Made by a program: the position numbers and the translations under genes. Under the pieces are notes generated by a model, which searched no databases, had not been told where the DNA came from, and was given only the letters and a program-made list of their open reading frames with translations. Of a stretch of DNA of 64,000 bases, positions 8,218-24,588 are shown piece after piece. Numbering within the stretch: the stretch's first letter is position 1; every line of letters starts with the position of its first letter. The DNA comes from Hyalangium versicolor (GTDB lineage: Bacteria; Myxococcota; Myxococcia; Myxococcales; Myxococcaceae): positions 172,297 to 236,296 of the forward strand of contig NZ_JAHXBF010000014.1 of the NCBI RefSeq assembly GCF_020103695.1, given 5' to 3'.

Positions 8218-10440
8218 ATGATCACCCGGCGTCTGGTCGAGCACTCCAAGGATGTGGCTCGCCTCGCTCCCGTTCGACCCGCGGTGAAGGCGGGGATCCG
8301 CGCCTCGCTCGCCGCCATCCTGCCCGCGGTCCTGTCCAACATCCTCCAGCTCACGGGAGGGCTGTGGCTGAGCGTGGGCGGCTTCAACACCTCCTTCGTG
8401 GACAAGGGCGGCTCGTACCGGGCGCGCGCATCCACCATGGGAGCAGCCGCCCTGGCCGGAGCGCTCTCCGCCACCGTCGCGGGGCTGGCGAGCATGCACC
8501 CCGCCGTTGCGATCCCTGCCGCCCTGCTCTGGGTGACAGCCTGCAGCTATGCCGGCGCGTACGGCACCGCCGCGAGCTTCGTGGGCAACACGGCCGCGAG
8601 CACCTTCGTCATCTCCCTGGCCCTGCCGGGCACGGGGCTCGTCGAGTCGCTGGAGCGCGGGGCCTTCGTGATCGGAGGCGCGCTCTGGGCGATGACGCTC
8701 TCGCTGGTGCTCTGGCCCATTCGCCCGTATCGGCCCAGCCGTCTGGCCGTCGCCCGCTGCTTCCGGGCGGTGGCGGACCTCGCGGCGGACGTGGGGCACC
8801 TCTCCACGCACGCCCAGGGCGATGCTTCCTGGCAGGCGCTGATCCAGCGCCACCACGGGAGACTCCGAGAAACGTTGGAGGAGGCCCGAAACACCCTTGC
8901 TGCCACCCGCCGCGGGAGATCCGAGAGCCATCGCGGGGAACGGCTGCTGGTGCTACTCGAAATCGCGGATGCGATGTTCGGCGTCCTGGTCGGGCTGGGC
9001 GACGTGATGGAGAGCCTGGTGAACGAGGGCGGCTCCGAGCCCGCCCGGGCGGAGGTGGAGCGCACCCTCTCCGCTGCATCCCAGACGCTCCAGGAACTCG
9101 CGCCCATCACCGAGACGGAAGGAGCGCCCCAGCAACTCCCATCCCTGAACTGGGGCGCGGAGGCACTTCGCAAGCTTCTGGACCCTGCCGGCGCGGACAG
9201 CGCATCCCCTGCCCTGCCAGCCTCCGCGCAGGTCAAAACGCTCCACGCGGCGCAGTTGCTGGCGCAGCTCCGAGAGTTCGCTGGGCTGGCAGTGGGCAAC
9301 GCAACCAGCCTCCACGATGATCACCCGACGCACGGTGAGCAGGTGCCCCAGCGTGGAGAGCACTCCGAGCAACGGCCCTCGCTGCTCGAACCGCTGCGGG
9401 TGAACCTCACCTGGAAGTCCATGGTGCTCCGGCACGCGCTCCGGGTGGGCGTCACCACGACGCTGGCGGTGGCTGTGGCCAAGGGCCTGAACCTCAGCCA
9501 CGGCTACTGGGTCACGATCACCGTGCTGACCATCATGTTGCCGTACAGCGGGCCCACCTTCCTCAAGGCCCTGCAGCGCGTGGTGGGCACGGTGGTGGGA
9601 GGGATCCTCGCCGCGGCCGTGGCCGCCGAGCTCCATCACCCGTACGCCATCCTGGTGCTGGTGTTCTTCACCGCCGCCATCAGCGTCGCCGTCATCGTCG
9701 TCAACTACGGCCTGTTCACCATCTTCGTCACGGTGACCTTCGTGCTGCTGGCCGAGATAGGCAGCGGCGACTGGAACCTGGCCCGGGTGCGCATCATCAA
9801 CACGCTCATGGGCGGGGCCCTGGCGCTGGCGGGCTCGTGGCTGCTGTGGGAGCGCCCGGAGAAGGAGCTCTTCCCCGAGCAGCTCGCCGAGGCCCACCGG
9901 GCACAGCGCGAGTACCTGCGGCAGCTCGTCGCCGCCTACCTGGACGGACGGAAGTTCCTGGATCCGGCGCTCTCGGAGGCCCGGCGCAAGATGGGCCTGG
10001 CGACCATCAACGCGGAGACCTCCTTCCAGCGGCTGCTCGCCGAGCCTCGACGGCGGGCCGAACCGATCGAGCCGCCGATGACCCTGCTCGTCTACACCCG
10101 CCGCTTCGCCGCGGCGATGATCGCCCTGTTCACCACGCAGCCCCAACAGGCGACAGTGCAGCTCCGCTCCCTCCTGGAGCGCTTCGCCCAGAACGCCGAG
10201 AAGGTCCTGGACGATCTCGCCGACGCCGCGCTCCAGGGGCGAAACCCCGCGCCGCTCCCCGACTTCGAGGCCGTCCTCCAGCCGAGCCACGCGCCCACCG
10301 TGGAGTCCGCCACCCGACCCGGAGATGACTCGCTGCTCCAGGCCCAGCTCCGCTGGATGGTGCGGCAACTCACCGTGCTCCACGGAGCCGCGTCACGGCG
10401 AAGCGCTCCGCCCGAGACGGGACACGCCCCTTCCGCGTGA
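8218..10440 (+). CDS. FUSC-family (YccS/YhfK-like) integral membrane protein
   Basis: 740 aa. Two hydrophobic multi-helix blocks separated by a long soluble region, the characteristic duplicated architecture of fusaric-acid-resistance/aromatic-acid-exporter family proteins. Confidence 0.7.
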   Translation: MITRRLVEHSKDVARLAPVRPAVKAGIRASLAAILPAVLSNILQLTGGLWLSVGGFNTSFVDKGGSYRARASTMGAAALAGALSATVAGLASMHPAVAIPAALLWVTACSYAGAYGTAASFVGNTAASTFVISLALPGTGLVESLERGAFVIGGALWAMTLSLVLWPIRPYRPSRLAVARCFRAVADLAADVGHLSTHAQGDASWQALIQRHHGRLRETLEEARNTLAATRRGRSESHRGERLLVLLEIADAMFGVLVGLGDVMESLVNEGGSEPARAEVERTLSAASQTLQELAPITETEGAPQQLPSLNWGAEALRKLLDPAGADSASPALPASAQVKTLHAAQLLAQLREFAGLAVGNATSLHDDHPTHGEQVPQRGEHSEQRPSLLEPLRVNLTWKSMVLRHALRVGVTTTLAVAVAKGLNLSHGYWVTITVLTIMLPYSGPTFLKALQRVVGTVVGGILAAAVAAELHHPYAILVLVFFTAAISVAVIVVNYGLFTIFVTVTFVLLAEIGSGDWNLARVRIINTLMGGALALAGSWLLWERPEKELFPEQLAEAHRAQREYLRQLVAAYLDGRKFLDPALSEARRKMGLATINAETSFQRLLAEPRRRAEPIEPPMTLLVYTRRFAAAMIALFTTQPQQATVQLRSLLERFAQNAEKVLDDLADAALQGRNPAPLPDFEAVLQPSHAPTVESATRPGDDSLLQAQLRWMVRQLTVLHGAASRRSAPPETGHAPSA

Positions 10441-10464
10441 AGCCACCGCGCCGCCCCGCCGGGC

Positions 10465-10971
10465 TCACCCCTGCTTCGCGGAGCTCGCGCCCTGTGGCTC
10501 TTCGGTCAGAGCGAGCGCCAGCTCATACACCTCATTCTTGTTGAAGGGCTTGCGGAGCTCCGTCAGCCGGTGCCCCTCGCCGAACTCCCGCCGCATGTCC
10601 TCCAGGGAGTAGTCCGAGAAGGCCGAGCACAAGACGACGGGCACCGTGGGAGAGACCTTCCGCAGGTGCCGCAGCGTCTCGAAACCATTCCACCCCGGGG
10701 GCATGCGGTAGTCCAGGAACACCAGCGCATAGGGCCGCCCCTCGGCCATCGCTTCCCGCACCTTGGCAACGCCATCCCGGCCTTGGAAGACCGTGTCCAC
10801 CTCGAAGATCTGGCTGGAGGTGCTGGAGCTCGGAGGCGTTACACCGAACAGCGCCTCCTCGAGCCGGGCGAGCTCCTCCCAATCCTGGGAGGGCCCCGGA
10901 CAGAGGATGCGCTTGAAGTCTTTGTGGATGTCCTCTGAGTCGTCGATGACCAGGATCCGGCGCTTAGACAT
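10465..10971 (-). CDS. stand-alone response regulator (receiver domain only, with an insertion)
   Basis: RILVIDDSEDI N-terminus, phospho-acceptor context ALVFLDYRMP and conserved K (LRKPF). About 30 aa extra between the acidic pocket and the acceptor Asp. Overlaps the kinase gene by 8 nt. Confidence 0.75.
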   Translation of the reverse strand: MSKRRILVIDDSEDIHKDFKRILCPGPSQDWEELARLEEALFGVTPPSSSTSSQIFEVDTVFQGRDGVAKVREAMAEGRPYALVFLDYRMPPGWNGFETLRHLRKVSPTVPVVLCSAFSDYSLEDMRREFGEGHRLTELRKPFNKNEVYELALALTEEPQGASSAKQG

Positions 10972-13234
10972 TCGGTCGCTCGCTCTGCTTCTCCGGGGTG
11001 ACGGGGAGCTCTAGCGTGAATGTCGCGCCCTTGCCTGGACCCTCGCTGTGCGCGACCAGGGAGCCCCCCAGCTCCTGAGCCGCCAGCGCGCTGGAGTGCA
11101 GGCCGAAGCCATGCCCCTCCTCGCGGGTGGTGAAACCGCGCTGGAAGATGCGCGTCAGCATCTCCGGCTCGATACCGATTCCATTGTCCCGCACCTCGAT
11201 CTGCACGCGCTCGTTGGACAGGGACCGGAGACTCACGGTCAGCCGCCGCTCTGCTTCCGGCAGCTCGTCCAACGCATACTTCGCATTGCTGATCAGATTG
11301 ACCAGAATCATCAGCACCTTGTGCTTCTCGGTCAGCACGGATGGAACGTCCCCCAGGTTCCTCTCCACCTTAACAGAGTGGCGCGTGAGTGCAGCCTGAT
11401 TGATGCGCACCGCATCCTCCACCAGCTCCGACAGCGTGGTGGGCTCCAGCAGGTGCAGCGGCATCCGCGCGAAGTTCTGCTGCAGCTTGACGATGGAGCC
11501 GATGTGCTCGGTGTGTCGACTGACGTCACTGAGCAGCGTCTGGATCTCCTGGCGCTCGGCCAGCATGTGCTTGCCGAGCCGGCGCAGGAAGGGCAGCGCG
11601 TTGCGCCCTCGCGGATCCTGGGTGAGGAAGCTCGCCAGGTCGCCCTGGTGCTGTTCGACCAGGTCCACCGTCCGCTCCACGTTGTCGATCTTCAGCGCGG
11701 CCAGCCGCTCCTGGGCCACCAGGGCGGAGGTGTGGACGCTGTTGAGCACGTTGCCGACGTTGTGCAACACGTTGGTGGCGATCTCGGCCCGGCCCACCTG
11801 CCGCGCCGTCTCCACGAGCTGCCGGTGGACCTCCGTGAGCTCCTGGGTGCGCTCCACCACGCGCTGCTCCAGGCCCTCGTTGGCCTGCAGCAGCTCTTCC
11901 TCTCGCCGCTGGACCTCCTGGGCCATCAACTGGAAGCCCTGGGCCAGCCGCCCCAGCTCGTCATCGCGCGAAGTCTCCAGCGAGACCTTGAAGTCTCCGG
12001 CCGCCACCTGGTCCGTGGCCTGGGTGAAGGCCTCCAGCGGGCGGGTGATCTGTTGCCTCAGCGCCCAGTACATCACCGCGAGTTCCACCAACAGGGACGC
12101 CAGGCCGAACATGAGGACATAGCGCGCCACGTGGAAGGCCGCCGAGGACACCACTCGTTCGGGCAACACCGTGACGAACTCCCACTCGGGGCCGTGCAGC
12201 CGCGCCGCCGCGAGGTACTCGCCATACTCCGGCAGGTGCACCCCGAGTTGCCCGCGCTTCAAGCCCTTCACTGCCTTGACGATGGCCTGCAGGTGCGCGC
12301 GGGCCTCCGCGGTGCCGCCTTCCTCGAAGACATCCTCCGGCTTCCGCGGGTCGTTCAGGATGTTGTACGGCTCCACCCCACTCTTCACCCGGAGCCCCGG
12401 GTGGGCGATGAGCAGACCGTCATCGCGGAAGAGCAGGTTGTAGCCCTCCGGCAGGTGGTCCAGGACGGTCCGGCGCATCAGCTCGTCCAGGAGCACGTCA
12501 TGGGAGACCGTCCCCACGTGACGCCCCTCCAGATCCACGGGCGTGACGACGGTGACCATCCAGGTGCGCGAGGGCACATCCTCGAAGATGCCGGTCCAGG
12601 CGGACTTCCGGCTCGAGTTGTTCTCGGGCAGACCCAAGGTGAAGTACTCGAGGTTCAGGATCGAGAAGCTGGGATCGAGATCCAGGAAGTACGTCGCCCC
12701 CTCCGGCCAGTACCCCACGACGACGCCCTCCGGGAGCATGATGCCGGTGTCCGTAAAGCGGACATGGAAGGCAGGGCCATACAGGGACACCGCCTCGTAC
12801 GCGGCCAGGAGCCGGCGGCGGAAGTCCGCATCGTCCCTCACGCCCCGAGGCACGAAGACGCCCGGCATCTTCGTGCCATCGAAGCCCTCGCGCTTGTTGC
12901 GGATCGTCCCATCCGCCTGGAGCGTGAAGAGGCTCTCGAAGAGCGGGTTGGGATCCTTCTCCCGCCAGGCCAGGATCCGCTCCTGGAAGGCCTTCGCGAC
13001 GAGCGCGTGGTCATCCTGCGCGAGCAGGAAGATGGCCTGCTCCCGCTGACTGCGCTCCGAGACGCCCCACTCCATCCGCGTGAGCGTCTCTGTGCGGATG
13101 GAGCGGAGGATGTGGAGGTAACTGACGAGGGTTGTAAGGGCGATGACCACCGCCACCCGCACGCCCATCTTGATGAGCGTGGATCGAGCCAGGGATGAGC
13201 GTGCGCGAGATGATGGGACTGGCGGGTTCGACAT
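10964..13234 (-). CDS. sensor histidine kinase with periplasmic Cache-like domain, HAMP, HisKA and HATPase
   Basis: TM1, a periplasmic region of about 300 aa, TM2, HAMP, coiled coil, H-box (ATNVLHNVGNVLNS), N-box (LISNAKYAL) and G-boxes (DNGIGI, GHGFGL). Confidence 0.85.
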   Translation of the reverse strand: MSNPPVPSSRARSSLARSTLIKMGVRVAVVIALTTLVSYLHILRSIRTETLTRMEWGVSERSQREQAIFLLAQDDHALVAKAFQERILAWREKDPNPLFESLFTLQADGTIRNKREGFDGTKMPGVFVPRGVRDDADFRRRLLAAYEAVSLYGPAFHVRFTDTGIMLPEGVVVGYWPEGATYFLDLDPSFSILNLEYFTLGLPENNSSRKSAWTGIFEDVPSRTWMVTVVTPVDLEGRHVGTVSHDVLLDELMRRTVLDHLPEGYNLLFRDDGLLIAHPGLRVKSGVEPYNILNDPRKPEDVFEEGGTAEARAHLQAIVKAVKGLKRGQLGVHLPEYGEYLAAARLHGPEWEFVTVLPERVVSSAAFHVARYVLMFGLASLLVELAVMYWALRQQITRPLEAFTQATDQVAAGDFKVSLETSRDDELGRLAQGFQLMAQEVQRREEELLQANEGLEQRVVERTQELTEVHRQLVETARQVGRAEIATNVLHNVGNVLNSVHTSALVAQERLAALKIDNVERTVDLVEQHQGDLASFLTQDPRGRNALPFLRRLGKHMLAERQEIQTLLSDVSRHTEHIGSIVKLQQNFARMPLHLLEPTTLSELVEDAVRINQAALTRHSVKVERNLGDVPSVLTEKHKVLMILVNLISNAKYALDELPEAERRLTVSLRSLSNERVQIEVRDNGIGIEPEMLTRIFQRGFTTREEGHGFGLHSSALAAQELGGSLVAHSEGPGKGATFTLELPVTPEKQSERPNV

Positions 13235-13240
13235 CGTGAG

Positions 13241-16036
<2,796 letters not shown>

Positions 16037-16138
16037 GCAGTCCCCACGCGAGGCGCGGCCTCGCCCGTGTCTGTTTCGCGACGAAGCGAACAGAGGGCCG
16101 ATCGTGCGCTCGGGCCCGACCGGAGTAAATGGGAACTG

Positions 16139-16230
16139 CTTGTCTTAAAATGTATCACTCAGGGGTCAGGCTCACCCCAGCACCCGATCGGATGCACAGG
16201 TCGTGAAGCACCCGGCGTGAGCCTGACCCA
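16139..16230. promoter_or_regulatory. AT-rich island plus perfect 13-bp inverted repeat in the GT2 / beta-propeller intergenic region
   Basis: ttgtcttaaaatgtatcac is locally AT-rich in a ~70% GC genome. GGGTCAGGCTCAC (about 16162) and its reverse complement GTGAGCCTGACCC (about 16218) flank a ~43-nt spacer. Confidence 0.3.
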
Positions 16231-16253
16231 CGCGCCTTCCTGGGCCTACATAC

Positions 16254-17432
16254 TCAGGACGCGCGCGCCGTGCGATCCCACGCCGCCTTCTGAGCGTTGC
16301 GCAGGAACCGCCAGAAACCCACGACGATGGCCAGGTTCATCGTCACGAAGTAGTAGGCCACCGAGGCGATCCTCCGGCCCGTGCCCTTGAGCACGCCCGC
16401 CTTCCCCAGATACGCGAGCGCGTAGAACATCACCTGGGTGAAGAGTGTGAGCCGGTAGAAGACGCTGTCGAGCAGGAAGAGGTTGGCCAGCAGCGCCGCC
16501 GCCATCAGCGCCGGAGCGCACCAGCGCAGCAGTTTGTGAGACCAGAAGGCGAAGGAGGCGAAGCCCGCCGTGGGCAGCAGCAGCCCCGGCACCATCTTCA
16601 GGCTCTGGAAGTTGCCCGCCGCGATGCGCGCGCGCCGACCGAACTCCTTGCCGTAATCCTCCGTCGTCTCCTCGTGTGCCACGGCCTGGGCCTCGTAGAC
16701 GACCTTGTAGCCCTGCTCGAGGATCCGCAGCGGGATCACGAAGTCATCCACGATGGTGGACGGCGGCAGTTGCGTGAAGAGCGTGCGGCGGATGGCGTAC
16801 AGCCCGCCGTTGGCCCCCACCACCGCGCCCCGCTTGCCCTCGTAGAGCTTGATGAGCGACTCGTAGTTCCAGTACGCGCTCTCCTCGTAGTCCTTCTTCG
16901 TCGGGTTGTAGAGCCGCAGCTTGCCGCAGACCGCGCCCACCTCCGGATCCTCGAAGTGGCGCACCAGCGCCTGGATGGCCTCGGGCTCGATGACCGTGTT
17001 CGCGTCCGAGAGGACGATGATGTCCCCCTTCGCCGCGGGGATGCAGCGGTTGAGCACCGTCGTCTTCCCCGCGCGAGGCGCCGGAGACAGCCGCACCCGC
17101 GAGTCCGTGCACGCACGGACGATCTCATCCGTCCCGTCCGTGGAGCCGTCCGAGCCGATCAGCACCTCGAAGCGGTCCGCCGGGTACTGCAGCGCCAGAC
17201 TGTTCTCCAGCTTCTGTCGGATGCAGCTCGCCTCGTTGTAGGCCGCCACCACCAGGCTCACCGACGGAGCAGGCCCCGCGCGCCGCTCCCGGCGTGGGCT
17301 CTCACCCTTCCGCATGGACCGGAACGTGTGAAAAACCTGCGCCACCCCGTCGATGGCGAACAGACACAGTGGGTAGAAAAAGTACGTGTGCAGCAGCAGT
17401 AGCGCCGCGCACCAGAAGAAGACCTCCGCCAT
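16254..17432 (-). CDS. family-2 glycosyltransferase (membrane-bound, polysaccharide-synthase-like)
   Basis: N-terminal TM helix, GT2 core (VVAAYNEASCI, GSDGSTDGT, IVLSDANT) and C-terminal TM helices. Confidence 0.8.
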   Translation of the reverse strand: MAEVFFWCAALLLLHTYFFYPLCLFAIDGVAQVFHTFRSMRKGESPRRERRAGPAPSVSLVVAAYNEASCIRQKLENSLALQYPADRFEVLIGSDGSTDGTDEIVRACTDSRVRLSPAPRAGKTTVLNRCIPAAKGDIIVLSDANTVIEPEAIQALVRHFEDPEVGAVCGKLRLYNPTKKDYEESAYWNYESLIKLYEGKRGAVVGANGGLYAIRRTLFTQLPPSTIVDDFVIPLRILEQGYKVVYEAQAVAHEETTEDYGKEFGRRARIAAGNFQSLKMVPGLLLPTAGFASFAFWSHKLLRWCAPALMAAALLANLFLLDSVFYRLTLFTQVMFYALAYLGKAGVLKGTGRRIASVAYYFVTMNLAIVVGFWRFLRNAQKAAWDRTARAS

Positions 17433-17601
17433 TACCCTCGCCTCCGCGTTCCCAATCTCCTCGAATCCCCAGAGGGGTCAGCAAGGGACGTGCCGGAGTG
17501 GCATGGGGGCTCTTCCCTCGGAGCAGGACCGTGACAGGTGCTCCCGAGCCGTATGACGCTGAACTTTCTCCAGCCTTGAGAGGAAGGAGGCTGAAAGCCT
17601 G

Positions 17602-19644
17602 TCAGGGGATGGAGGCGGTCGTGGGCGCCCACTTCTGGAGCTTCCGAGCAAGCGCGTGGTTCGGGTTGAGCACCAGCACCGCGTCGAGCAAGGACTGCGC
17701 CGTCGCCGGATCGTTCTGGCGCAACGCCAGGCGGGCGCCCAGCACGTAGGCTCGAAAGAACGCCGGATCCTTCGTGCGCAAGCTCGACAGATCCTCGGCC
17801 ACCGCGGCCAGCGCGGACGGAGGCGTGTTGGCATTGAGGCCATACTCGGCCAGCGCGAGGACGCTCCAGTGAGGATGGGACTCCACCTTCTTGAGCCGCT
17901 CGGCCAGCGCCACCGCCATGGGAGTACCGCTGACGGCCTCGGAGATCGCCTGGGCCTTCACCCTCGCCACCACGTCGGCCGACGGCTCGGTCTCGGGGGC
18001 GGCACGGATGACGATGAGAGCCCTGTCGAGCCGCGCCTTCAGCTCCGCGATCGTGGCAGTGAGGGAACGTCGCTGCTCACCGAGCGTGGTCTGCTCCTGC
18101 TTGCGCGCGGTGACCCGGCCGGACCAGTCGGCCGGGGTCTTCGAGAGCTCGAGTGCGGAGATCTCCTTCTGGAGACGGGCCTCCTGCTGGCGGACCCATT
18201 CGAAGTCGACCCTCACGTCATCGAGTTGCAGCGCGAGCGCCACGACGAGCTCGGCCTGGGCCTCGGTGAACTTCGGGTAGCGCTCCGCCAGAGTGCTCAG
18301 CTGCTGGATGGCTTGCTGCCGGGAGTCCATGTCGTCCCGCCGGAGCAGGTTCACCGCCTCGTCCTTCGCGGCGACGGCGTCCCCGGGTAGCTCCGCGCCC
18401 CGGTTGCGCCACACGGGGTACGACAGCCACGCCGTCAGTCCCAGTGCGACGAGGGCCGCCAGGATGATGAGGATCCGCTCCTTCCCACCGCCCGAGGACT
18501 CTTCGGAAGCGGGCCTTGCGCTGCTGGGACGCTCCGAGACGAGCACCTCGGGAGGCAGCTCCACCGCGGGGGCTCGACGCGAGGCCGCGATGGGTCCGCT
18601 TCGAGCGATCTCCGGCTCCGGCGGAATGAACGGGTGCTCGGGCTCCGGGAGGGGAACCGGCTCTTCGGGGAGCTCGACGGACGGTGCCGCCGTGGGCATG
18701 CCAACGGGACTCGTGATGGTCCGGGCGGGCTTCACCGCGGGCCCGGGCTCGGCCAGCCACGGCGCCGGGCTGCCTTCCGGGCTCGACGCTGGGGCGGTGG
18801 GCTCCATCGCCTTCCGAGCCTGCTGAACCTGCGCTGAACCGAAAACCTGGGTCGTGGCTGCCGAGGGCGCTTGTCCCGGGATGGAGGCGGCACCGAAGAC
18901 CTGGGTCGTGGTCGGTGGAGGAGCCTTGGCCGCCACGTCCGCCGCACCGAAGACCTGGGTGGTGGCCGTCGAGGGCTGCTGGGGAGGAATCGAGGCCGCG
19001 CCGAACACCTGCGTCGTGGTGGCTGGCGGCGCCTTCCCGAGCCCTGGCGGGGCACCGAAGACCTGGGTCGTGCTGGCCGACGGAGGAGGCAGAGGGGCTG
19101 GCGCACCGAAGACCTGGGTCGTGCTCGCCGAGGGAGGAGGCAGCGGAGCCGAGGGCGCACCAAACACCTGGGTCGTGCTGGGGATGGGCGCCTTCGCCGG
19201 GGCTGCGGGCGCGCCGAACACCTGCGTGGTGCTCAGGGAAGGCGCGGGAGCCCCAGGCGCCGCGAACAACTGGGTCTTGCTCCCCGGGGGGAGGTGCGTG
19301 CCCGCAGTCGATGAACCGGAGGCCGAAGTCCTGCTCGACGCTCTGTCCCCCGCCGCGCTGTCGGCTCCAGAGGGAGGCGGAGGAACCCCGAAGATTTGCG
19401 TCGTCTGGGTGTTGAGAGATCCCGGCTTCGAGCCACCCGGGCTGGGACTGCCGAAGATCCCCGTCTTCGTCCCCACGGAGGAGCGAGAGGGATTTGGACT
19501 CGAGCCTGGGATGAGGACCTCACCCGAAGGGGTGGCGGTGAAGACGCAGCGACAGCGTGTGCACTGGACCGATGCCCCCGCCGGCGGCAGCAGCCGGGGA
19601 TCGAGGTCGTACTGCATCGAGCACTGAGGGCAGGCGATCTGCAC
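17602..19644 (-). CDS. MJ0042-type zinc-ribbon protein with ~12 tandem Pro-rich 'TTQVFGAP' (FG-type) repeats, a TM helix and a C-terminal TPR-like domain
   Basis: N-terminus MQIACPQCSMQY...VQCTRCRCVF (C4 zinc ribbon). Residues ~50-290 are 15-16-aa repeats (TTQVFGAPxxPxxPPSAS). TM helix ILIILAALVALGLTAWLSY at about residue 390, then a ~270-aa helical/TPR-like region. Confidence 0.75.
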   Translation of the reverse strand: MQIACPQCSMQYDLDPRLLPPAGASVQCTRCRCVFTATPSGEVLIPGSSPNPSRSSVGTKTGIFGSPSPGGSKPGSLNTQTTQIFGVPPPPSGADSAAGDRASSRTSASGSSTAGTHLPPGSKTQLFAAPGAPAPSLSTTQVFGAPAAPAKAPIPSTTQVFGAPSAPLPPPSASTTQVFGAPAPLPPPSASTTQVFGAPPGLGKAPPATTTQVFGAASIPPQQPSTATTQVFGAADVAAKAPPPTTTQVFGAASIPGQAPSAATTQVFGSAQVQQARKAMEPTAPASSPEGSPAPWLAEPGPAVKPARTITSPVGMPTAAPSVELPEEPVPLPEPEHPFIPPEPEIARSGPIAASRRAPAVELPPEVLVSERPSSARPASEESSGGGKERILIILAALVALGLTAWLSYPVWRNRGAELPGDAVAAKDEAVNLLRRDDMDSRQQAIQQLSTLAERYPKFTEAQAELVVALALQLDDVRVDFEWVRQQEARLQKEISALELSKTPADWSGRVTARKQEQTTLGEQRRSLTATIAELKARLDRALIVIRAAPETEPSADVVARVKAQAISEAVSGTPMAVALAERLKKVESHPHWSVLALAEYGLNANTPPSALAAVAEDLSSLRTKDPAFFRAYVLGARLALRQNDPATAQSLLDAVLVLNPNHALARKLQKWAPTTASIP
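18770..19500. repeat. ~45-nt tandem DNA repeats encoding the FG-type repeats
   Basis: Recurring unit gcaccgaagacctgggtcgtg(g/c)t... visible on the plus strand about 12 times with small variations. Confidence 0.6.
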
Positions 19645-19680
19645 GCGAAGTGCTTACCACACGGAGTCGCTGGACGGGGC

Positions 19681-20079
19681 TCAACGTAGCTCGGTGGCTG
19701 CCTGGAGGGTCTCCAACTTGGCAGCGCCCACGCCGGAGACGGCATCCACCTCGGTCCAGTTGGAGAAGCGCCCCTGGGCGTCACGGGCCTCCACCAGCTT
19801 GCGCGCCAGCGAGCGCCCCACGCCGGGCAACCGAGCAAGCTCCTCCTCCGAGGCGGAGTTGAGGTCCAGCTTCAGCCCGAGCGCCAGGGCCTGGGCCCCC
19901 GTGGGAGGCGCCCCTTCGCCGCAGACGGCCACCCCGTCCCGGAAACGCACTGCGGCAGGAGCGCAGTCCAATGCGGGAGTGGGACTCGGCCAGCGCCACC
20001 GCGCGATGCCTCCGATGGCCATGAGTCCCAGGGTCGCGACGGCGAGCGAGCCCGTCCGGTTCATGACGCTGAAAGCCAA
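19681..20079 (-). CDS. comEA: ComEA-family helix-hairpin-helix DNA-binding protein
   Basis: N-terminal membrane anchor, then LDLNSASEEELARLPGVGRSLARKLVEARDAQGRFSNWTEVDAVSGVGAAKLETL, the ComEA tandem-HhH signature. Confidence 0.75.
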   Translation of the reverse strand: MAFSVMNRTGSLAVATLGLMAIGGIARWRWPSPTPALDCAPAAVRFRDGVAVCGEGAPPTGAQALALGLKLDLNSASEEELARLPGVGRSLARKLVEARDAQGRFSNWTEVDAVSGVGAAKLETLQAATELR

Positions 20080-20219
20080 AGTCCCTGCCCCCCCTGCCTG
20101 CTTGACGGGCGGACCCTATTGAGCGCATCCCTCCGTGTCAAAGCCATCGTGTTACACCGGAGGTGGCTGGCCGCGCGCCCGGACTGGGTTAGGGTGCGCG
20201 CCCTTTCGCTGGAGCCCTC

Positions 20220-21746
20220 ATGTCCCTGCCCCGCCTGCTCATCGATGGAGACACTCTCAAGCTGGAGGAGATCCTCCAGGTGGCCCGCCACGCCGTGACC
20301 GTGGAGTTGGCGCCCGAGGCCGCGGGCCGGGTCCACGCCTCGCGGGCCCTTGTCGACCGGGTGGCCGCGGGGGATGTGCCCTCGTACGGCATCAACACGG
20401 GGTTCGGCACGCTGGCCGAGGTCCGGATCGACAAGAAGGATCTGCGTGAGTTGCAGCGCAACTTGATCCTGTCGCACGCGGCGGGCGTGGGCTCGCCGCT
20501 GCCGTTGCCGGAGGCCCGAGCGCTCTTGCTGCTGCGGTGCAACGTGCTGGCCAAGGGTTACTCGGGGATCCGGCCGGAGACGCTGCAACTGGCGTTGGAC
20601 ATGCTGAACCGGGACGTGGTGCCAGTGGTGCCCGAGCGCGGGAGCGTGGGGGCGTCCGGAGATCTGGCGCCGCTGGCTCACCTGGCGCTGGTGTTCATCG
20701 GCGAGGGCGAAGCGTACTTCCAGGGCGAACGGCTCCCGGCTCGGCAGGCGCTGGAGCGTGCGGGGCTGCAACCGGTGGTGCTGGAGGCGAAGGAGGGCCT
20801 GGCGCTGGTGAACGGCACGCAGGCCATGTGCGCGGTGGGCACGCTGCTGCAACTGCGCGCCGAGATGCTGGCGGATCTGGCGGACCTGGCCGGGGCGATG
20901 ACGCTGGAGGGGCTGCTGGGGAGTCACAAGCCCTTCATCCCGGAAATCCACGACGTGCGTGCACACGCGGGCCAGAAGGCCTGCGCTGCCCACCTGCGGC
21001 AGCTGCTGGTGGGCAGCGAGTTGGTGGAGACGCACGTGAACTGCAGCAAGGTTCAGGATCCGTACAGCTTGCGGTGCATGCCGCAGGTGCACGGCGCGGC
21101 GCGAGAGGGTTTGGCGTTCGCGCGGCGGATCCTCGAGGTGGAGGTGAACAGCGCCACGGACAACCCGCTGGTGTTCGTGGACACGGAGCGGATCGTGTCG
21201 GGCGGTAACTTCCATGGTCAGCCGATATCGCTGGCGCTGGACGTGGCGGCCATGGCGCTGACGCAATTGTCGGCGATCAGCGAGCGCCGGGTGGAGCAGT
21301 TGGTGAACCCGTCGCTGTCGGGGCTGCCTCCGTTCCTGGCGAAGAATTCGGGGTTGAACTCGGGGTTCATGATCGCGCAGGTGACGAGCGCGGCGCTGGT
21401 GGCCGAGTCGCGGGTGCTGAGCCACCCGGCCTCGGTGGACTCGATCCCCTCGTCGGCGGGCCGTGAGGACCATGTGTCCATGGGGATGACGGCGGCGCTG
21501 AAGGGGCGGCAGGTGGCGGACTTCACGCGCTCGTGCCTGGCGATCGAGCTGCTGTGCGCGGCGCAGGCACTGGACTACCGGCAGCCGGTGAAGGCGGGCA
21601 AGGGTCCGCAGGCGGCGTACGAGTTGATCCGGCGCAAGGTGCCCACGATGGAGAAGGACCGCGAGCTCCACCGGGACATCGCAGCGGTGAGTGCACTGAT
21701 CGACTCGGGAGAACTGCTGGAAACAGTGCACTCCGCCACCGTGTGA
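20220..21746 (+). CDS. hutH: histidine ammonia-lyase
   Basis: 508 aa. The MIO-forming Ala-Ser-Gly triad lies in [17 protein letters not shown]. Overall HAL/PAL family pattern ([16 protein letters not shown]). Confidence 0.9.
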
Positions 21747-21776: not shown

Positions 21777-23189
21777 CTACTGCTTCACCACCCGCACCGG
21801 CCCGAACTGCTCGAGCTCCGCCTTCACCTTGTCGTCCCCGACGACGACGACCGTCTGTGACGACGAAGCGAAGAGCTTCTTCCCCGCTTCGCGAATCTGC
21901 GCGGACGTGACGGCGTTCACCTTTGGCACGTACTCGCCGAGGAACTCGGGCGGCAGCCCCTTGACCCAGTTGGTGGCCAGCACATACGCGACCGACCACT
22001 GCGATTGTGTGTTCAGCAGGTAGCGCCCGGTCGCCACCCGCTGCGCGGTCTGCAGATCCTCCGCGGTGACGTCCGTCGCCCCCATGCGATCCAACTCGTA
22101 GATGAGCTCCAGCAGCGTCGCGGCCGTCACCTCGTTGCGCACCTGCACATTGACCTGCAGGGCCCCGCCCTGCTGATACGACGACAGGTTCGACCAGGGC
22201 GAGTACGAGTAGCCCTTGTCCTCGCGGATGTTCTCCATCAGCCGGCCCGCGAAGCCGCCTCCAAAGACCGTGTTGGCCACCAGCGAGGGGAAGTAGGCCG
22301 GATCGGAGGCATGCACCCCCACCCGGCCAATCATGATGACCGACTGGACCGAGCCCGGACGCGAGACGAACAGGATCTCCCGCCCCTTGGGAGCAGGCAC
22401 CTGAGGCGTCGCAGCGGGTGCGGAGCCCGATCCCTTCCATCCGCCAAAGGACTTCGTCACCGCCTGGGAGACGGCCTCGGCGTCGAAGGCACCAGCAATC
22501 ACCAGCAGGGCGCCATCCGGGCGGAAGCGCCGCGAGAACTCCTTCTTCAGCACCTCCGGCGTGGCGCCACTGATCACCGCCGCGGTCGGCGAGACAACGT
22601 GGTACGGGTGCTTGCCGAACACCGCCTCGGCGAAGGTCTTCTGCGCCAGGAACTGCGGCTGCGAACTCTTCACCTGCAGATCCTGCAGCGCATTGGCCTT
22701 CGCGAGCGCCACCTCCTGCGCTGGGAACGAGGCATTGCGAGCGACATCCGCCACGACGGAGAGGACCGTGTCCGCCCCTGACGCCAGGCCATCGGCCTGA
22801 AGGTAGATCGCATCGTCCGCGGCCTCGACCTGGAGCGAGCCTCCCACGGCTTGCAATTCCTCGGCGATCTGGCGGCTCGTCCGGGTCGCAGTCCCCTCCG
22901 ACAGCGTGCTGGCCAGCAACGAGGTGAGCCCCTCCTTTCCCTTGGGATCGGCGGCCGTGCCGCCTCGCGCCGCGAGGATCACCGTTACCTTCGGGAAGCC
23001 CTCACGTGGCACGAGCCACACCGTCAGTCCCTCGGGTGTCGTGGACTTGAGGATCTTCGGCACCGGCAGCGGCTTATCCGCTCCGAAGGCAGGCAGCTCC
23101 TTCGGGAACGGCTTGCGCTCGGCCGCGAGCGCCGGCGCCACGGCCAGGGACAGGAACACAGTCAGCAGACGGGTCAGATGATGGTTCAT
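21777..23189 (-). CDS. M16-family (pitrilysin-like) peptidase, non-catalytic partner subunit
   Basis: Start at internal Met MNHHLTRLLTVFLSLAVAPALA (signal peptide). M16 fold-like sequence without an HxxEH motif. 10 nt downstream of the catalytic M16 gene. Confidence 0.75.
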   Translation of the reverse strand: MNHHLTRLLTVFLSLAVAPALAAERKPFPKELPAFGADKPLPVPKILKSTTPEGLTVWLVPREGFPKVTVILAARGGTAADPKGKEGLTSLLASTLSEGTATRTSRQIAEELQAVGGSLQVEAADDAIYLQADGLASGADTVLSVVADVARNASFPAQEVALAKANALQDLQVKSSQPQFLAQKTFAEAVFGKHPYHVVSPTAAVISGATPEVLKKEFSRRFRPDGALLVIAGAFDAEAVSQAVTKSFGGWKGSGSAPAATPQVPAPKGREILFVSRPGSVQSVIMIGRVGVHASDPAYFPSLVANTVFGGGFAGRLMENIREDKGYSYSPWSNLSSYQQGGALQVNVQVRNEVTAATLLELIYELDRMGATDVTAEDLQTAQRVATGRYLLNTQSQWSVAYVLATNWVKGLPPEFLGEYVPKVNAVTSAQIREAGKKLFASSSQTVVVVGDDKVKAELEQFGPVRVVKQ

Positions 23190-23199
23190 GGCGGGCTCC

Positions 23200-24588
23200 T
23201 CACTTTCCTTCCGCGGCCTGCGGGGTGGCGACCTTCGCCGGGCGACGATCGATGACCGTCCGGTTGGTGGGCGCCAGCCACGTGGAGGCCACGCGCCGGA
23301 TGTCCTCGGAGGTGACGGCACGGATCTGGGTCGGCAGATCGTTCAGCTTCGCGGCATCCCCCGTGAAGAGCTGGGTCAACGCCAGCTTGTTGGCCCGGCT
23401 GAGCGGGGCCTCGATGTCGGCATAGAGGTTCGACTCCAGATTCGTCTTCACCCGTGCCAACTCTTCCGCGGGCACACCCTCCTTGGCGATCCGGGAGATG
23501 ATGTCTCCCATCGCGGTGACCACCGCCTTGGCATCCGTCTCTGGCTTGTAGAGGCCGAAGAAGGTCATCATCGTCGGCCCTTCGATCTCCCACGCATCTC
23601 CCAGCGGCCAGTTGAGACCGCCCTGGATCTGGGAGAGCGTGCCACTGCCCTTCACCAACCCCTGATAGAGGCGCGACGCGTTGCCGCCCGCGAGCAGCTC
23701 GCCCAACACCGCGGCCGGGACATAGTCCTGCGAGGTCCGCCCGGGCAGCTTGAAGCCCACTGCCAGCCCCGGCACCTGCGCCAGCGCATCCGTCTGGTTC
23801 ACCCACCGCTCGGCCGTGTTCGCGCCCTCGCTGACATCCGGACGCTTGGGCTGTGCACGGGACGGCAGCGCGCCGAAGTACTTCTCCACCTTGGCGAAGA
23901 CCTCCTGCGGCTCCACGTCTCCAGAGATGCCAATCACTGCGTTGTTCGGGGCGTAGTACGTCTCGAAGAAGGACTTCACGTCCGCGATGTTCGCCGCGTC
24001 CAGATCCGTGAAGGAGCCGTACCCATCGTGGGAGTTCTCCCACTTGTCGAACGCCTTGCCCACGATGTCCGTCCAGTAGAAGAGGCCATAGGGACGGTTG
24101 AGGACGTTGCCGCGGATCTCCTCCTTCACGACGTCCTGCTGGTTCTTGAGGTTCTTCTCGGAGAAGTCGAGCCCCTTCATCCGGTCCGCTTCGAGCCAGA
24201 GGATCGCGTCCAGCGCCGAGACCGGAGCCGATGCGATGTAGTTCGTGTGGTCATACCGCGTGGAGCCATTCAGCACGCCACCGCCGCCTTGGATGACGCG
24301 GCCCAGGATGCCCTTCGGCGCGTTGGGAGTGCCCTGGAACATCATGTGCTCGAAGAGGTGGGCAAAGCCGGTCCGCCCTTTCGGCTCCAGGCGGAAGCCA
24401 ATCCGATACACGGTGCTGATCCCGAACGTCGGCGTCGAGTGATCCGGAGAGACGACGACGGTCAGCCCGTTGGGCAGCTTCTTGACGAAGACAGGCAACT
24501 TCCAGCTCTGCGGCGCGGGAGACTCGGCGGCCGCGGGGAGGGCCAGCGCGATGGCGAGCGCCAGCGCGGTAATGGGAACTCTTCTCAT
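23200..24588 (-). CDS. M16-family zinc peptidase, catalytic subunit
   Basis: Signal peptide MRRVPITALALAIALALPAAA. Inverted zinc motif HxxEH in FAHLFEHMMFQG. Confidence 0.85.
   Translation of the reverse strand: MRRVPITALALAIALALPAAAESPAPQSWKLPVFVKKLPNGLTVVVSPDHSTPTFGISTVYRIGFRLEPKGRTGFAHLFEHMMFQGTPNAPKGILGRVIQGGGGVLNGSTRYDHTNYIASAPVSALDAILWLEADRMKGLDFSEKNLKNQQDVVKEEIRGNVLNRPYGLFYWTDIVGKAFDKWENSHDGYGSFTDLDAANIADVKSFFETYYAPNNAVIGISGDVEPQEVFAKVEKYFGALPSRAQPKRPDVSEGANTAERWVNQTDALAQVPGLAVGFKLPGRTSQDYVPAAVLGELLAGGNASRLYQGLVKGSGTLSQIQGGLNWPLGDAWEIEGPTMMTFFGLYKPETDAKAVVTAMGDIISRIAKEGVPAEELARVKTNLESNLYADIEAPLSRANKLALTQLFTGDAAKLNDLPTQIRAVTSEDIRRVASTWLAPTNRTVIDRRPAKVATPQAAEGK

What the first reader, a model, noticed from the sequence alone, without database searches (positions are those of the whole stretch)
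17602..19644. Zinc-ribbon / FG-repeat / TM / TPR protein
After an MJ0042-type C4 zinc ribbon come about 12 near-identical 15-16-aa Pro-rich repeats centred on TTQVFGAP (variants TQIFGVP, TGIFGSP, TQLFAAP). This is a phenylalanine-glycine repeat array reminiscent of nucleoporin FG repeats or a GYF/SH3-ligand array. A single TM helix and a TPR-like C-terminal domain follow. The topology (cytoplasmic ZnR plus Pro-rich linker, TM, periplasmic TPR) resembles what I recall of the gliding-motility protein GltJ, but without a GYF domain. This could be a paralogous trans-envelope scaffold. The gene lies between comEA and a GT2 polysaccharide-synthase gene on one strand.
Basis: partly seen in the sequence, partly recalled or inferred. 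Interest (0 to 1): 0.6.

Follow-up and report, generated by a model that had tools for sequence, protein, structure and literature searches.

The report
Zinc-ribbon membrane scaffold with TQxFG motifs
This gene encodes an uncharacterised membrane-spanning scaffold found only in myxobacteria, and its disordered cytoplasmic tail carries many copies of a strictly conserved Thr-Gln-x-Phe-Gly docking motif, which makes it a promising but untested signalling hub rather than an ordinary low-complexity protein.

Summary
The ORF is real: window 17602-19644, minus strand, 680 aa, GTG start. It is the Hyalangium versicolor ortholog of M. xanthus MXAN_3468, which no paper in the searched library mentions.

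Anatomy:
- An MJ0042/Zn_ribbon_4 C4 zinc ribbon (residues 1-37, above curated cut-offs).
- A roughly 350-aa Pro/Ala/Ser/Thr-rich tail predicted to be disordered. It carries 11 motif copies, not 12: eight exact TTQVFG at a 17-18-aa period (not 15-16) plus three degenerate copies.
- A conserved VELPPE motif.
- One TM helix.

The family has at least 418 clusters, and every named member is from Myxococcota. T-Q-x-[FY]-G is conserved throughout. Thr sits at -3 in 93% of 1554 copies and Ser in 0.6%. Copy number (0-22) and spacing vary freely. This makes it a short-linear-motif array, not a structural repeat and not a nucleoporin homolog.

It is not a GltJ paralog in any strict sense: it has no GYF domain and no TonB-C domain.

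comEA-gene-GT2 synteny holds in most of the 80 genomes examined. Disruption of the GT2 ortholog (MXAN_3469) depletes spores.

Best reading: a multivalent trans-envelope adaptor whose motifs are possibly phospho-Thr (TQxF) ligands for FHA domains. That last step is inference only.

The parts
17602..19644 (-). Whole CDS (680 aa plus stop codon). Ortholog of M. xanthus DK1622 MXAN_3468.
   Evidence: ORF list. GC3 0.84. More than 135 word-indexed homologs and 418 profile hits. Ortholog identity.
19534..19644 (-). C4 zinc ribbon, residues 1-37 (CPQC...19 residues...CTRC), MJ0042/Zn_ribbon_4 type.
   Evidence: Pfam PF13717 E=1.4e-11 and TIGR02098 above cut-off. AF2 pLDDT about 90 with four short strands. 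I3, C5, C8, Y12, L14, D15, G23, V26, C28, C31 and F35 are invariant in 31-50 sequences.
18475..19533 (-). Predicted disordered cytoplasmic tail, residues 38-390.
   Evidence: Composition of residues 46-290: 18% Pro, 17% Ala, 13% Ser, 12% Thr. AF2 pLDDT 46-58 for residues 51-130. Tail length in the family ranges from 54 to 554 aa, while the C-terminal part stays at about 295-305 aa.
18838..19464 (-). Array of 11 T-[QG]-phi-F-[GA] motifs, residues 61-269. The eight exact TTQVFG copies occupy 18838-19230.
   Evidence: Motif positions and spacings. TRF periods of 51, 54, 108 and 159 nt. Family logo: T 94%, Q 73%, V 50%. Shuffle test.
18547..18564 (-). Second conserved linear motif, V-E-L-P-P-E (residues 361-366), about 30 aa upstream of the TM helix.
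   Evidence: A phi-x-phi-[PS]-[PAT]-[ED] match, mostly [LVI]-E-L-P-P-[ED], is present in 178 of 246 family members at a median of 32 aa before the TM helix. Nearly invariant Pro columns in alignment A1.
18409..18474 (-). Single transmembrane helix, residues 391-412 (ILIILAALVALGLTAWLSYPVW).
   Evidence: Best 19-residue hydropathy window scores 2.3. AF2 gives a helix at fragment positions 9-36. K+R bias favours the N-side.
17605..18384 (-). Periplasmic (inferred) all-helical TPR-like domain, residues 421-680. It includes the invariant LRRDD (18331-18345), a 2 x 40-residue helical hairpin (18004-18267) and LNPNH (17656-17670).
19681..20079 (-). Upstream ComEA-like gene (132 aa, helix-hairpin-helix), 36 bp from the start codon and probably co-transcribed.
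   Evidence: Pfam HHH_3 E=2.6e-15. Found immediately upstream in 76 of 80 related genome loci.
16254..17432 (-). Downstream membrane GT2 glycosyltransferase (392 aa), ortholog of MXAN_3469, separated by a 169-bp gap.
   Evidence: Pfam Glyco_tranf_2_3 and Glycos_transf_2. Best solved relative 6yv7, E=1.1e-19. Downstream in 55 of 80 loci; 8 of the other 25 have less than 1 kb of sequence after the gene, so absence is mostly real. M. xanthus gene order. Transposon phenotype.

Best explanation
This is the Hyalangium versicolor ortholog of M. xanthus MXAN_3468. It belongs to an uncharacterised family of bitopic inner-membrane scaffolds whose named members are all from Myxococcota.

Shown:
- An N-terminal C4 zinc ribbon.
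- A long tail that is predicted disordered and evolves fast.
- Within that tail, the only conserved elements are many copies of a T-Q-phi-[FY]-G motif plus one phi-E-L-P-P-[ED] motif near the membrane.
- One TM helix.
- A TPR-like alpha-solenoid of constant size.

Inferred mechanism: the protein acts as a multivalent adaptor across the envelope.
- The cytoplasmic tail recruits several copies of a soluble partner through the repeated motif.
- The ribbon serves as a protein-protein module, as it does in GltJ and ZitP.
- The TPR-like domain holds a periplasmic peptide or protein ligand.

My preferred sub-hypothesis is inference only. T-Q-x-F is the classic ligand of FHA domains once the Thr is phosphorylated. 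On this view the array is a phospho-switchable docking platform, written by one or more of the many myxobacterial Hanks-type kinases and read by FHA proteins.

The output may concern the adjacent membrane GT2 (MXAN_3469 ortholog), whose disruption impairs sporulation.

My rough confidence by level:
- Architecture: about 0.9.
- Multivalent motif scaffold: about 0.7.
- Phospho-Thr/FHA reading: about 0.3.
- Functional link to the GT2: about 0.3.
For: Architecture.

The motif is under selection while the rest of the tail is not:
- In 121 proteins (1066 copies), T is at -3 in 94%, Q at -2 in 73% and V at -1 in 50%. Of all tail Phe residues, 83% are followed by Gly.
- In 229 tails, the -3 position of 1554 [FY]G dipeptides is Thr in 1442 cases and Ser in only 10. 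Yet Ser (8.5%) is commoner than Thr (7.3%) in these tails.
- 33% of all tail Thr residues have F/Y at +3, against 2% of Ser residues.
- Copy number ranges from 0 to 22 with variable spacing. The TM-to-end length is constant at about 295-305 aa.
- Distant members keep T-x-x-F-G in the form N-Q-T-M-[MV]-F-G.
- The identical cores differ by synonymous codons.

Precedents for the FHA reading:
- T-Q-x-F with F/Y at pT+3 and strict exclusion of Ser matches the MDC1 TQXF repeats. These are phosphorylated on Thr and bound by the RNF8 and Pellino FHA domains (PMC11884936).
- It resembles the GarA N-terminal ETTS phospho-motif, which lies next to an FHA domain (PMC12321487).
- Rv1747 is a bacterial membrane protein with phospho-Thr sites in an unstructured linker and FHA domains (PMC8339232 abstract).

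Zinc-ribbon precedents:
- The GltJ ribbon binds a linker motif and MglB (PMC11135422).
- ZitP is a bitopic zinc-finger protein (PMC5182063).

Context:
- comEA-gene-GT2 synteny in most of 80 genome loci, down to 26-30% identity.
- Insertions in MXAN_3469 are depleted in both spore types.
Against: - There is no experimental datum on any family member.
- No FHA, PP2C or conserved kinase gene lies in the neighbourhood. The one Ser/Thr kinase gene, 5 kb away, is syntenic only in the Hyalangium clade.
- Gly after Phe is nearly as conserved as Thr. FHA recognition does not normally read the pT+4 position, so the motif probably has constraints that the FHA model does not explain.
- The wider chromosomal region is also syntenic between Hyalangium and Myxococcus: the CHAP, 563-aa, UvrD and StkA genes. 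Adjacency to the GT2 may therefore reflect vertical inheritance rather than function.
- The 169-bp gap before the GT2 leaves room for a separate promoter.
- MXAN_3468 is not mentioned among the sporulation hits in the main text of the transposon study, and the tables were not available.
- Topology is inferred, not measured.
Confidence: 0.45

Rival explanations
1. Nucleoporin-like cohesive FG domain. The Phe residues act as stickers in a Pro/Ala-rich spacer. The tails then self-associate into a membrane-attached condensate or selective meshwork, or they bind hydrophobic pockets of a carrier-like partner, without phosphorylation.
For: 83% of tail Phe residues are in FG dipeptides, and Gly at +1 is highly conserved. 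Pfam Nucleoporin_FG gives a sub-threshold hit here and precomputed hits in several homologs. The tail is predicted disordered. Valency is variable, as expected for sticker-spacer systems.
Against: The Pfam hit is below the gathering score, 24.5 against 32.2 bits. Spacers are rich in Pro and Ala, unlike the polar N/Q/S/T/G spacers of cohesive FG nucleoporins (my own knowledge). A pure sticker model does not explain the near-invariant Thr at -3 with exclusion of Ser, nor Gln at -2. Some orthologs, such as Stigmatella P0026 and P0030, matched the strict core pattern only once, although looser TxxYG-type copies exist in these proteins.
Confidence: 0.15
2. GltJ-type switch in gliding motility or polarity. 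The ribbon binds one of the tail motifs in cis. A small GTPase (MglA-GTP or a paralog) competes for that motif, releasing the ribbon to recruit MglB or another regulator.
For: The closest solved sequence relative of the ribbon is GltJ/AgmX, PDB 7zok. GltJ uses exactly such a ribbon/linker/MglA competition (PMC11135422). The first motif sits at a conserved distance after the ribbon in all orthologs.
Against: The match to 7zok is weak (E=0.064). There is no GYF domain and no TonB-C domain. In a GltJ ortholog (L081), the linker stretch that fits the published V98/D100/L103 numbering reads EDEIGAVFDQVL, which is not TQxFG-like. That contig is frameshifted, so this point is tentative. AF2 of residues 1-130 gives no confident docking of a motif onto the ribbon. 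The gene is not in a glt/agl cluster.
Confidence: 0.1
3. The Thr-rich repeats are acceptor sites for cytoplasmic O-glycosylation by the neighbouring GT2, by analogy with O-GlcNAc on FG nucleoporins.
For: Adjacency of the GT2 is conserved. The catalytic domain of such membrane GT2 enzymes faces the cytoplasm (established knowledge for the cellulose-synthase-like fold). The TT dipeptide is conserved in the motif.
Against: The closest relatives of the GT2 are polysaccharide or lipid-linked-sugar enzymes: 6yv7, chondroitin, heparosan and cellulose synthases, and PgaC-like models. None is a protein O-glycosyltransferase. The GT2 is far more conserved (59-92% identity) than the tail.
Confidence: 0.05
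4. An ordinary low-complexity linker. The repeats are slippage products that merely space the ribbon from the membrane, and the protein is a generic TPR or LapB-like envelope protein.
For: Tail length and repeat number vary greatly. NCBI names truncated copies LapB. The C-terminal profile hits the LapB TPR region at E=2.9e-4.
Against: The motif is conserved across the whole family, while spacers are not. The cores differ by synonymous codons. No NCBIfam LapB hit appears even at E<=1. The LapB similarity covers only about 100 residues of generic TPR. LapB has a C-terminal rubredoxin and cytoplasmic TPRs (my own knowledge), which is the opposite arrangement.
Confidence: 0.05

Closest known systems
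GltJ / AgmX (M. xanthus MXAN_4862; ribbon structure PDB 7zok)
   Same: Both are bitopic inner-membrane proteins from myxobacteria. Both have an N-terminal MJ0042-type zinc ribbon followed by a disordered linker that carries a functional short linear motif. GltJ is the best solved sequence match of this ribbon.
   Different: GltJ has a GYF domain and a periplasmic TonB-C domain. This protein has neither. Instead it has a motif array and a TPR-like domain. Ribbon similarity is marginal (E=0.064). The genomic contexts differ.
ZitP (Caulobacter crescentus bitopic zinc-finger polarity protein)
   Same: Both have an N-terminal zinc ribbon or finger that mediates protein-protein contacts in the cytoplasm, a single TM helix, and a C-terminal domain on the other side of the membrane (PMC5182063, PMC5182065).
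   Different: ZitP's C-terminal domain is DUF3426, which was not detected here. ZitP has no TQxFG array. Its partner is PopZ, which to my knowledge is not reported in myxobacteria.
MDC1 TQXF cluster, and the GarA ETTS and Rv1747 linker phospho-Thr motifs (FHA ligands)
   Same: All have repeated Thr-Gln-x-Phe motifs in a disordered region. The Thr is not replaceable by Ser, and an aromatic residue sits at +3.
   Different: This is an analogy of motif grammar only. There is no homology, no evidence of phosphorylation, and no FHA partner identified. The conserved Gly at +4 is not part of known FHA ligands.
FG nucleoporins (Pfam PF13634)
   Same: Both have many FG dipeptides in a disordered region of low charge. 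Pfam gives a sub-threshold hit.
   Different: The hit is below the family threshold. Spacers are Pro/Ala-rich. The motif has a fixed T-Q prefix. The protein is bacterial and membrane-anchored.
TPR peptide-binding solenoids (PEX5 C-terminal domain, APC/C TPR subunits, LapB TPR region)
   Different: Sequence identity is only 7-14%. A 2 x 40-residue helical hairpin interrupts the solenoid. Pfam TPR models stay below their cut-offs for this protein.

Membership tests
MJ0042-type zinc ribbon (TIGR02098 / Pfam Zn_ribbon_4 PF13717) | A CxxC-x(19)-CxxC motif at the N-terminus, scoring above the curated cut-offs. | tested here: met
   PF13717 scores 44.5 bits (cut-off 30.3). TIGR02098 scores 26.4 bits (cut-off 20.9). 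All four Cys are invariant in 31-50 homologs. AF2 pLDDT is about 90.
Tetratricopeptide repeat (TPR) proteins | Sequence match to Pfam TPR models above the gathering score. | tested here: not met
   In the whole-protein scan, TPR_14, TPR_16, TPR_19 and TPR_6 score 13.1-14.3 bits. On the C-terminal domain alone they score up to 19.8 bits. All are below their cut-offs. Twelve of 26 family members hit TPR_19 at E<0.01.
Tetratricopeptide repeat (TPR) proteins | A right-handed solenoid of paired antiparallel helices, judged by fold. | tested here: met
FG nucleoporins (Pfam Nucleoporin_FG PF13634) | Score above the Pfam gathering threshold. | tested here: not met
   24.5 bits against a cut-off of 32.2.
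FG nucleoporins (Pfam Nucleoporin_FG PF13634) | Cohesive behaviour, or binding to transport receptors, through the FG Phe residues. | not testable with these tools
   This needs biophysics on the purified tail.
GltJ/AgmX gliding-motility protein | A GYF domain following the ribbon and linker. | tested here: not met
   No GYF_2 hit at E<=1. The GltJ ortholog contig L081 does carry GYF_2.
GltJ/AgmX gliding-motility protein | A periplasmic TonB-C domain. | tested here: not met
   The C-terminal domain is all-helical and TPR-like. GltJ's is TonB-C (PMC11135422).
GltJ/AgmX gliding-motility protein | A linker motif bound competitively by the ribbon and MglA-GTP. | tested here: inconclusive
   AF2 of residues 1-130 shows no confident ribbon-motif contact. 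The putative GltJ linker motif in L081 is not TQxFG-like, but that contig is frameshifted. Binding itself cannot be tested here.
ZitP-type polarity factor | A C-terminal DUF3426 domain. | tested here: not met
   No DUF3426 hit.
LapB/YciM (the name NCBI gives to truncated copies) | NCBIfam/equivalog match, an N-terminal TM helix followed by TPRs, and a C-terminal rubredoxin-type zinc site. | tested here: not met
   No LapB model appears among NCBIfam hits at E<=1. There are no Cys residues in the C-terminal domain (sequence). The only similarity is E=2.9e-4 over about 100 TPR residues.
FHA-domain ligands of the TQXF type (functional class, not a homology family) | Thr (not Ser) with a hydrophobic or aromatic residue at +3, typically T-Q-x-F. 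| tested here: met
   Thr is at -3 of [FY]G in 1442 of 1554 cases and Ser in 10 of 1554. Gln is at -2 in 982 of 1554. The MDC1 definition is in PMC11884936.
FHA-domain ligands of the TQXF type (functional class, not a homology family) | The Thr is phosphorylated in vivo and is bound by an FHA domain. | not testable with these tools
   No phosphoproteomic data for MXAN_3468 were found. No FHA gene lies in the neighbourhood.

The most novel reading that the evidence does not exclude
The T-Q-phi-F-G array is a bacterial counterpart of eukaryotic TQXF or SQ/TQ cluster domains. It would be a multi-site phospho-threonine platform on a membrane scaffold. When phosphorylated by Hanks-type kinases, it would cluster FHA-domain proteins (possibly as a membrane-bound condensate). 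Through the TM helix and the periplasmic TPR-like domain, it would then switch on an envelope polysaccharide synthase (the MXAN_3469-type GT2) during the rod-to-spore transition.
Probability: 0.15. Interest if true: 0.8.

Novelty: new variant of a known kind. Interest (0 to 1): 0.55.

Why it matters
Myxobacteria carry dozens of MJ0042-ribbon membrane proteins, and only GltJ has a known mechanism. This family is conserved across the Myxococcaceae and Archangiaceae and has one copy per locus in the 80 genomes examined.

It is a clean natural example of a short linear motif kept under strong selection inside a tail that otherwise evolves freely. Such motif arrays are well documented in eukaryotes but rarely in bacteria.

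The motif grammar gives a directly testable hypothesis linking the very large myxobacterial Ser/Thr-kinase and FHA repertoire to an envelope process. The features are a strict Thr, Gln at +1 and Phe at +3.

The neighbouring GT2 has just been flagged as a new sporulation factor, so a concrete phenotype is available to test.

A practical point also follows. Most public gene models of the family are truncated or misnamed, which hides the ribbon and the motif array from annotation-based surveys.

Tried and rejected
- Plasmid megablast with the gene found no match.
- Promoter and terminator scans of 16000-20400 were uninformative: 0 promoters, and 1 terminator-like site inside the GT2 gene, below the shuffle expectation.
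- An Rfam scan of the locus found nothing.
- Literature searches for the motif string, for FG repeats in myxobacteria and for MJ0042 found nothing relevant.
- A search for an M. xanthus ComEA locus tag gave a false hit on an author's name.
- I tried to retrieve full-length GltJ using the 40-aa 7zok ribbon sequence. Only fragments of 47-65 aa came back, so that search was largely wasted. A GltJ ortholog was then recovered from a frameshifted contig. Its linker does not resemble TQxFG, so I dropped the idea that the repeats are GltJ-type MglA/ribbon-binding motifs as the leading model.
- AF2 of residues 1-130, run to look for cis docking of the first motif onto the ribbon, showed none.
- An exact-sequence look-up of the M. 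xanthus AM003 ortholog failed, because the public gene models are truncated.
- The supplementary tables of the transposon study are not held, so the fitness of MXAN_3468 itself could not be read.
- I considered and rejected the LapB, lipid kinase, antifreeze glycopeptide, FliL and Lpp names attached by databases. None is backed by a domain hit.
Full report
**1. The observation**

The six-frame ORF list shows a 680-aa ORF at 17602-19644 on the minus strand with a GTG start. Its third-position GC content of 0.84 is typical of real genes in this 68% GC window.

The N-terminus MQIACPQCSMQY is shared by full-length orthologs from Myxococcus sp. MH1, Stigmatella aurantiaca and M. xanthus DK1622. Most database models instead begin at Met10 and lose the first CxxC. 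Others keep only the C-terminal 307-486 residues. One cluster member of a 100%-identical fragment is WP_255636913.1 from Hyalangium versicolor, so the window comes from that species or a very close relative.

Pfam Zn_ribbon_4 (44.5 bits) and TIGR02098 MJ0042_CXXC (26.4 bits) both exceed their curated cut-offs.

The repeat description needs correction.
- There are 11 motif copies.
- Eight are exact TTQVFG[AS], starting at residues 140-265 with spacings of 17-18 residues.
- Three are degenerate upstream copies: TGIFG at 61, TQIFG at 82 and TQLFA at 124.
- Tandem Repeats Finder sees periods of 51-54 nt with only 67-86% matches.

Ten T..FG matches in the tail compare with a mean of 0.10 and a maximum of 3 in 20,000 shuffles. 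Within the eight identical cores, 62 of 168 pairwise codon comparisons differ synonymously. The identity of the cores therefore reflects selection on the peptide, not just recent slippage.

**2. Anatomy**

- Residues 1-37 fold as a four-stranded zinc ribbon (AF2 pLDDT about 90). Residues 51-130 have pLDDT 46-58.
- The tail (residues 46-290) is 18% Pro, 17% Ala, 13% Ser and 12% Thr.
- A single hydrophobic helix spans residues 391-412.
- Residues 421-680 were modelled from a 72-sequence alignment. Mean pLDDT is 93.2 and pTM is 0.85. The model has twelve helices, including a hairpin of two 40-residue helices.
- At the sequence level the TPR signal is weak. All Pfam TPR models are below cut-off for this protein. 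A profile of the domain reaches the LapB TPR region only at E=2.9e-4.
- Topology is inferred as N-in. The four-Cys ribbon has no signal peptide. Across 207 family members, the 15 residues before the helix hold 3.8 K+R on average, against 2.2 after it.

**3. The family**

A word-indexed search found more than 135 homologs. An exhaustive profile search with the C-terminal domain alone found 418 cluster representatives at E<=1e-3 and 174 at E<=1e-30. In all 150 listed, the domain is C-terminal.

Every named source is a member of Myxococcota. The genera are Hyalangium, Stigmatella, Archangium, Cystobacter, Melittangium, Vitiosangium, Myxococcus, Corallococcus, Pyxidicoccus and Aggregicoccus, plus many MAGs. 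One record is labelled Comamonas sp. KCTC 72670 (L053). It carries the full myxobacterial synteny at 82-88% neighbour identity, so I take it to be a mislabelled or contaminated assembly.

The stretch from the TM helix to the C-terminus is almost constant at 295-305 aa. The tail varies from 54 to 554 aa.

Invariant or nearly invariant positions are:
- the ribbon residues;
- a phi-E-L-P-P-[ED] motif about 32 residues before the helix, present in 178 of 246 members;
- LRRDD just after the helix;
- W593, E600, L603, R631, L635 and R638;
- LNPxH near the C-terminus.

**4. The motif**

I aligned 1066 [FY]G occurrences from the tails of 121 proteins. This gives T at -3 in 94% (3.2 bits), Q at -2 in 73% and V at -1 in 50%. 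A or S follows the Gly. Flanking positions are nearly uninformative apart from Pro at -8.

Without conditioning on Gly, 1428 of 2004 tail Phe residues are followed by Gly, and 1452 have Thr at -3.

Among 1554 [FY]G dipeptides in 229 tails, Thr occupies -3 in 1442 cases and Ser in 10, although Ser is the commoner residue in these tails. One third of all tail Thr residues have F/Y at +3, against 2% of Ser residues.

Distant members replace T-Q-V-F-G with N-Q-T-M-[MV]-F-G but keep T-x-x-F-G. M. xanthus uses T-Q-[TAM]-[FY]-G, with 13-14 copies in MXAN_3468.

Copy number ranges from 0 to 22, and spacing is not conserved. In the window the motif occurs in no other reading frame or gene.

The array is therefore a set of short linear motifs under strong purifying selection in an otherwise free-running disordered region. 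It is neither a structural repeat nor a mere low-complexity linker. The motif is conserved. Its spacing is not.

**5. Context**

The upstream gene is 36 bp away and encodes a 132-aa ComEA-like helix-hairpin-helix protein. The downstream gene follows a 169-bp gap and encodes a 392-aa membrane GT2.

The GT2 matches NCBIfam models only far below their cut-offs; PgaC/IcaA is the best. Its closest solved relative is the GT2 of entries 6yv7-6yv9 (E=1.1e-19). From memory, I believe this is the minimal cellulose-synthase-like archaeal mannosyltransferase. Chondroitin, heparosan and cellulose synthases follow.

I fetched 80 genome loci with a conserved-peptide scan.
- ComEA lies immediately upstream in 76.
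- The GT2 lies immediately downstream in 55 (8 of the other 25 have less than 1 kb of sequence after the gene, so absence is mostly real).
- A divergent hutH lies upstream in 73.
- This holds down to family members with only 26-30% identity.

The neighbours are far better conserved than this gene. GT2 identity is 59-92% and HutH 72-95%, against 26-62% for this gene.

The synteny argument must be discounted somewhat. In M. xanthus the block continues with CHAP, a 563-aa ORF, UvrD and then StkA-StkB-StkC. The same genes are present in the window further downstream: CHAP at 7318-8199, UvrD at 3328-5445 and Hsp70 at 1624-3237. The whole region is thus vertically conserved.

No FHA, PP2C or GYF gene lies nearby.

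**6. Is the ortholog characterised?**

The DK1622 ortholog is MXAN_3468 (ABF92683.1, Q1D6Q8, 777 aa, annotated as a hypothetical protein). No paper in the searchable library mentions it.

The adjacent MXAN_3469, described as a predicted glycosyltransferase, appears in a 2026 barcoded-transposon study. Insertions in it were depleted in both starvation-induced and glycerol-induced spore samples. The authors suggest a role in spore-coat polysaccharide synthesis. The published stk gene sizes and locus tags match the gene order in L082. This supports the assignment MXAN_3469 = GT2. The tables that would show the fitness of MXAN_3468 itself are not held.

**7. How it most likely works**

Shown: the domain architecture, the disorder prediction, the motif conservation and the constant periplasmic domain.

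Inferred: the protein is a trans-envelope adaptor. Its tail offers many equivalent docking sites to a cytoplasmic partner. Its ribbon is a protein-protein module, as in GltJ, where it binds a linker motif and MglB, and as in ZitP. Its TPR-like groove holds a periplasmic ligand.

The motif grammar points to a specific reading. T-Q-x-F is the motif that, once phosphorylated on Thr, is bound by the FHA domains of RNF8 and Pellino in MDC1. FHA domains read pThr but not pSer, and they read the +3 residue (established knowledge). That would explain the 144:1 Thr:Ser ratio and the F/Y at +3.

Bacterial precedents exist. One is the GarA ETTS motif next to its FHA domain. From memory, that sequence continues ETTSVFR, close to TTQVFG. 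Another is the phosphorylated unstructured linker of the FHA-bearing ABC transporter Rv1747. Also from memory, mycobacterial PknA and PknB prefer Thr followed by Gln, and M. xanthus encodes about a hundred Hanks-type kinases.

Against this reading:
- the conserved Gly at pT+4 is not explained;
- no kinase, phosphatase or FHA gene is linked to the locus;
- there are no phosphorylation data.

I therefore give the generic multivalent-scaffold model about 0.7 and the phospho/FHA version about 0.3.

**8. Rivals**

- A nucleoporin-like cohesive FG domain explains the FG conservation and the variable valency. It does not explain the T-Q prefix. The Pfam hit is below threshold.
- A GltJ-like ribbon/linker/GTPase switch is attractive by analogy. 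However, the GltJ linker motif inferred from ortholog L081 (EDEIGAVFDQVL) is unlike TQxFG. AF2 shows no cis docking. The defining GYF and TonB-C domains are absent.
- O-glycosylation of the Thr residues by the neighbouring GT2 is unlikely, given that enzyme's relatives.
- The inert-linker and LapB readings are contradicted by motif conservation and by domain tests.

**9. Novelty and verdict**

The building plan is known from GltJ and ZitP: an N-terminal MJ0042 ribbon on a bitopic membrane protein. To my knowledge, and within the literature I could search, the combination has not been described. That combination is a conserved T-Q-x-F-G array, a juxtamembrane ELPPE motif and a periplasmic TPR-like solenoid with a long hairpin. 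The family has no characterised member.

I rate it a new variant of a known kind, of moderate interest. It is not an artefact and not a nucleoporin relative. It is also not yet tied to any phenotype.

Noticed in passing
window 16254-17432 (-): The downstream GT2 is the ortholog of M. xanthus MXAN_3469. Transposon insertions in that gene were depleted in starvation-induced and glycerol-induced spores in a 2026 genome-wide screen (bioRxiv 10.64898/2026.08.28.747804). Its best solved relative is 6yv7 (E=1.1e-19). It lacks a recognisable QxxRW motif: the corresponding stretch reads GRRARIAAG.
   Followed up: partly
window 1624-3237 (-): This 537-aa Hsp70 gene is, by synteny and size, the ortholog of StkA (MXAN_3474, 540 aa). 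StkA is a negative regulator of exopolysaccharide in M. xanthus. The CHAP, unknown-ORF, UvrD and StkA block seen in M. xanthus is conserved in the window.
   Followed up: partly
window 8218-16036: Relative to M. xanthus, a block is inserted between the GT2 and the CHAP gene. It contains a FUSC-family membrane protein, a response regulator, a HAMP/dCache histidine kinase and a 931-aa beta-propeller protein.
   Followed up: no
window 13241-16036 (-): This 931-aa secreted-looking protein combines YVTN/lactonase-type beta-propeller repeats with two CxxCH haem-binding motifs (SSCASCH and GPCASCH). It gives weak NCBIfam hits to hydrazine-synthase subunits. It could be a di-haem cytochrome c fused to a propeller.
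   Followed up: no
window 17602-19644 and homologs (P0002, P0149, P0286, P0331-P0354): Public gene models of this family are systematically damaged. Many start at Met10 and lose the first CxxC. PGAP models in M. xanthus keep only the last 307-486 residues. Attached names are not supported by any domain hit: LapB, lipid kinase, antifreeze glycopeptide AFGP, FliL, Lpp and lipid transfer protein.
   Followed up: yes
window 18547-18564 (-): A second conserved short motif, phi-E-L-P-P-[ED], lies about 32 residues before the TM helix in 178 of 246 family members. Its partner is unknown.
   Followed up: partly
window 20080-20219; L082 8266-9543: M. xanthus and most other loci carry an aspartokinase gene (AA_kinase plus ACT) between hutH and the ComEA-like gene. 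In the window the two are directly adjacent, so the aspartokinase gene is absent here.
   Followed up: no
window 21777-23321 and 23200-24588 (-): Two tandem M16 (insulinase-type) peptidase genes have maximal ORFs that overlap by about 120 bp. The real start of the downstream gene (21777-23321) is probably further in.
   Followed up: no
L053 (BNCN01000016.1, labelled Comamonas sp. KCTC 72670): This record is labelled as a betaproteobacterium. Yet it carries the complete myxobacterial hutH/comEA/ribbon-gene/GT2 locus at 82-88% neighbour identity. It is probably a mislabelled or contaminated assembly.
   Followed up: no
L081 5001-7175: This metagenomic contig holds a GltJ ortholog (ribbon, linker, GYF) broken by frameshifts into several called genes. 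Its linker contains ATQVMQNP and EDEIGAVFDQVL.
   Followed up: partly
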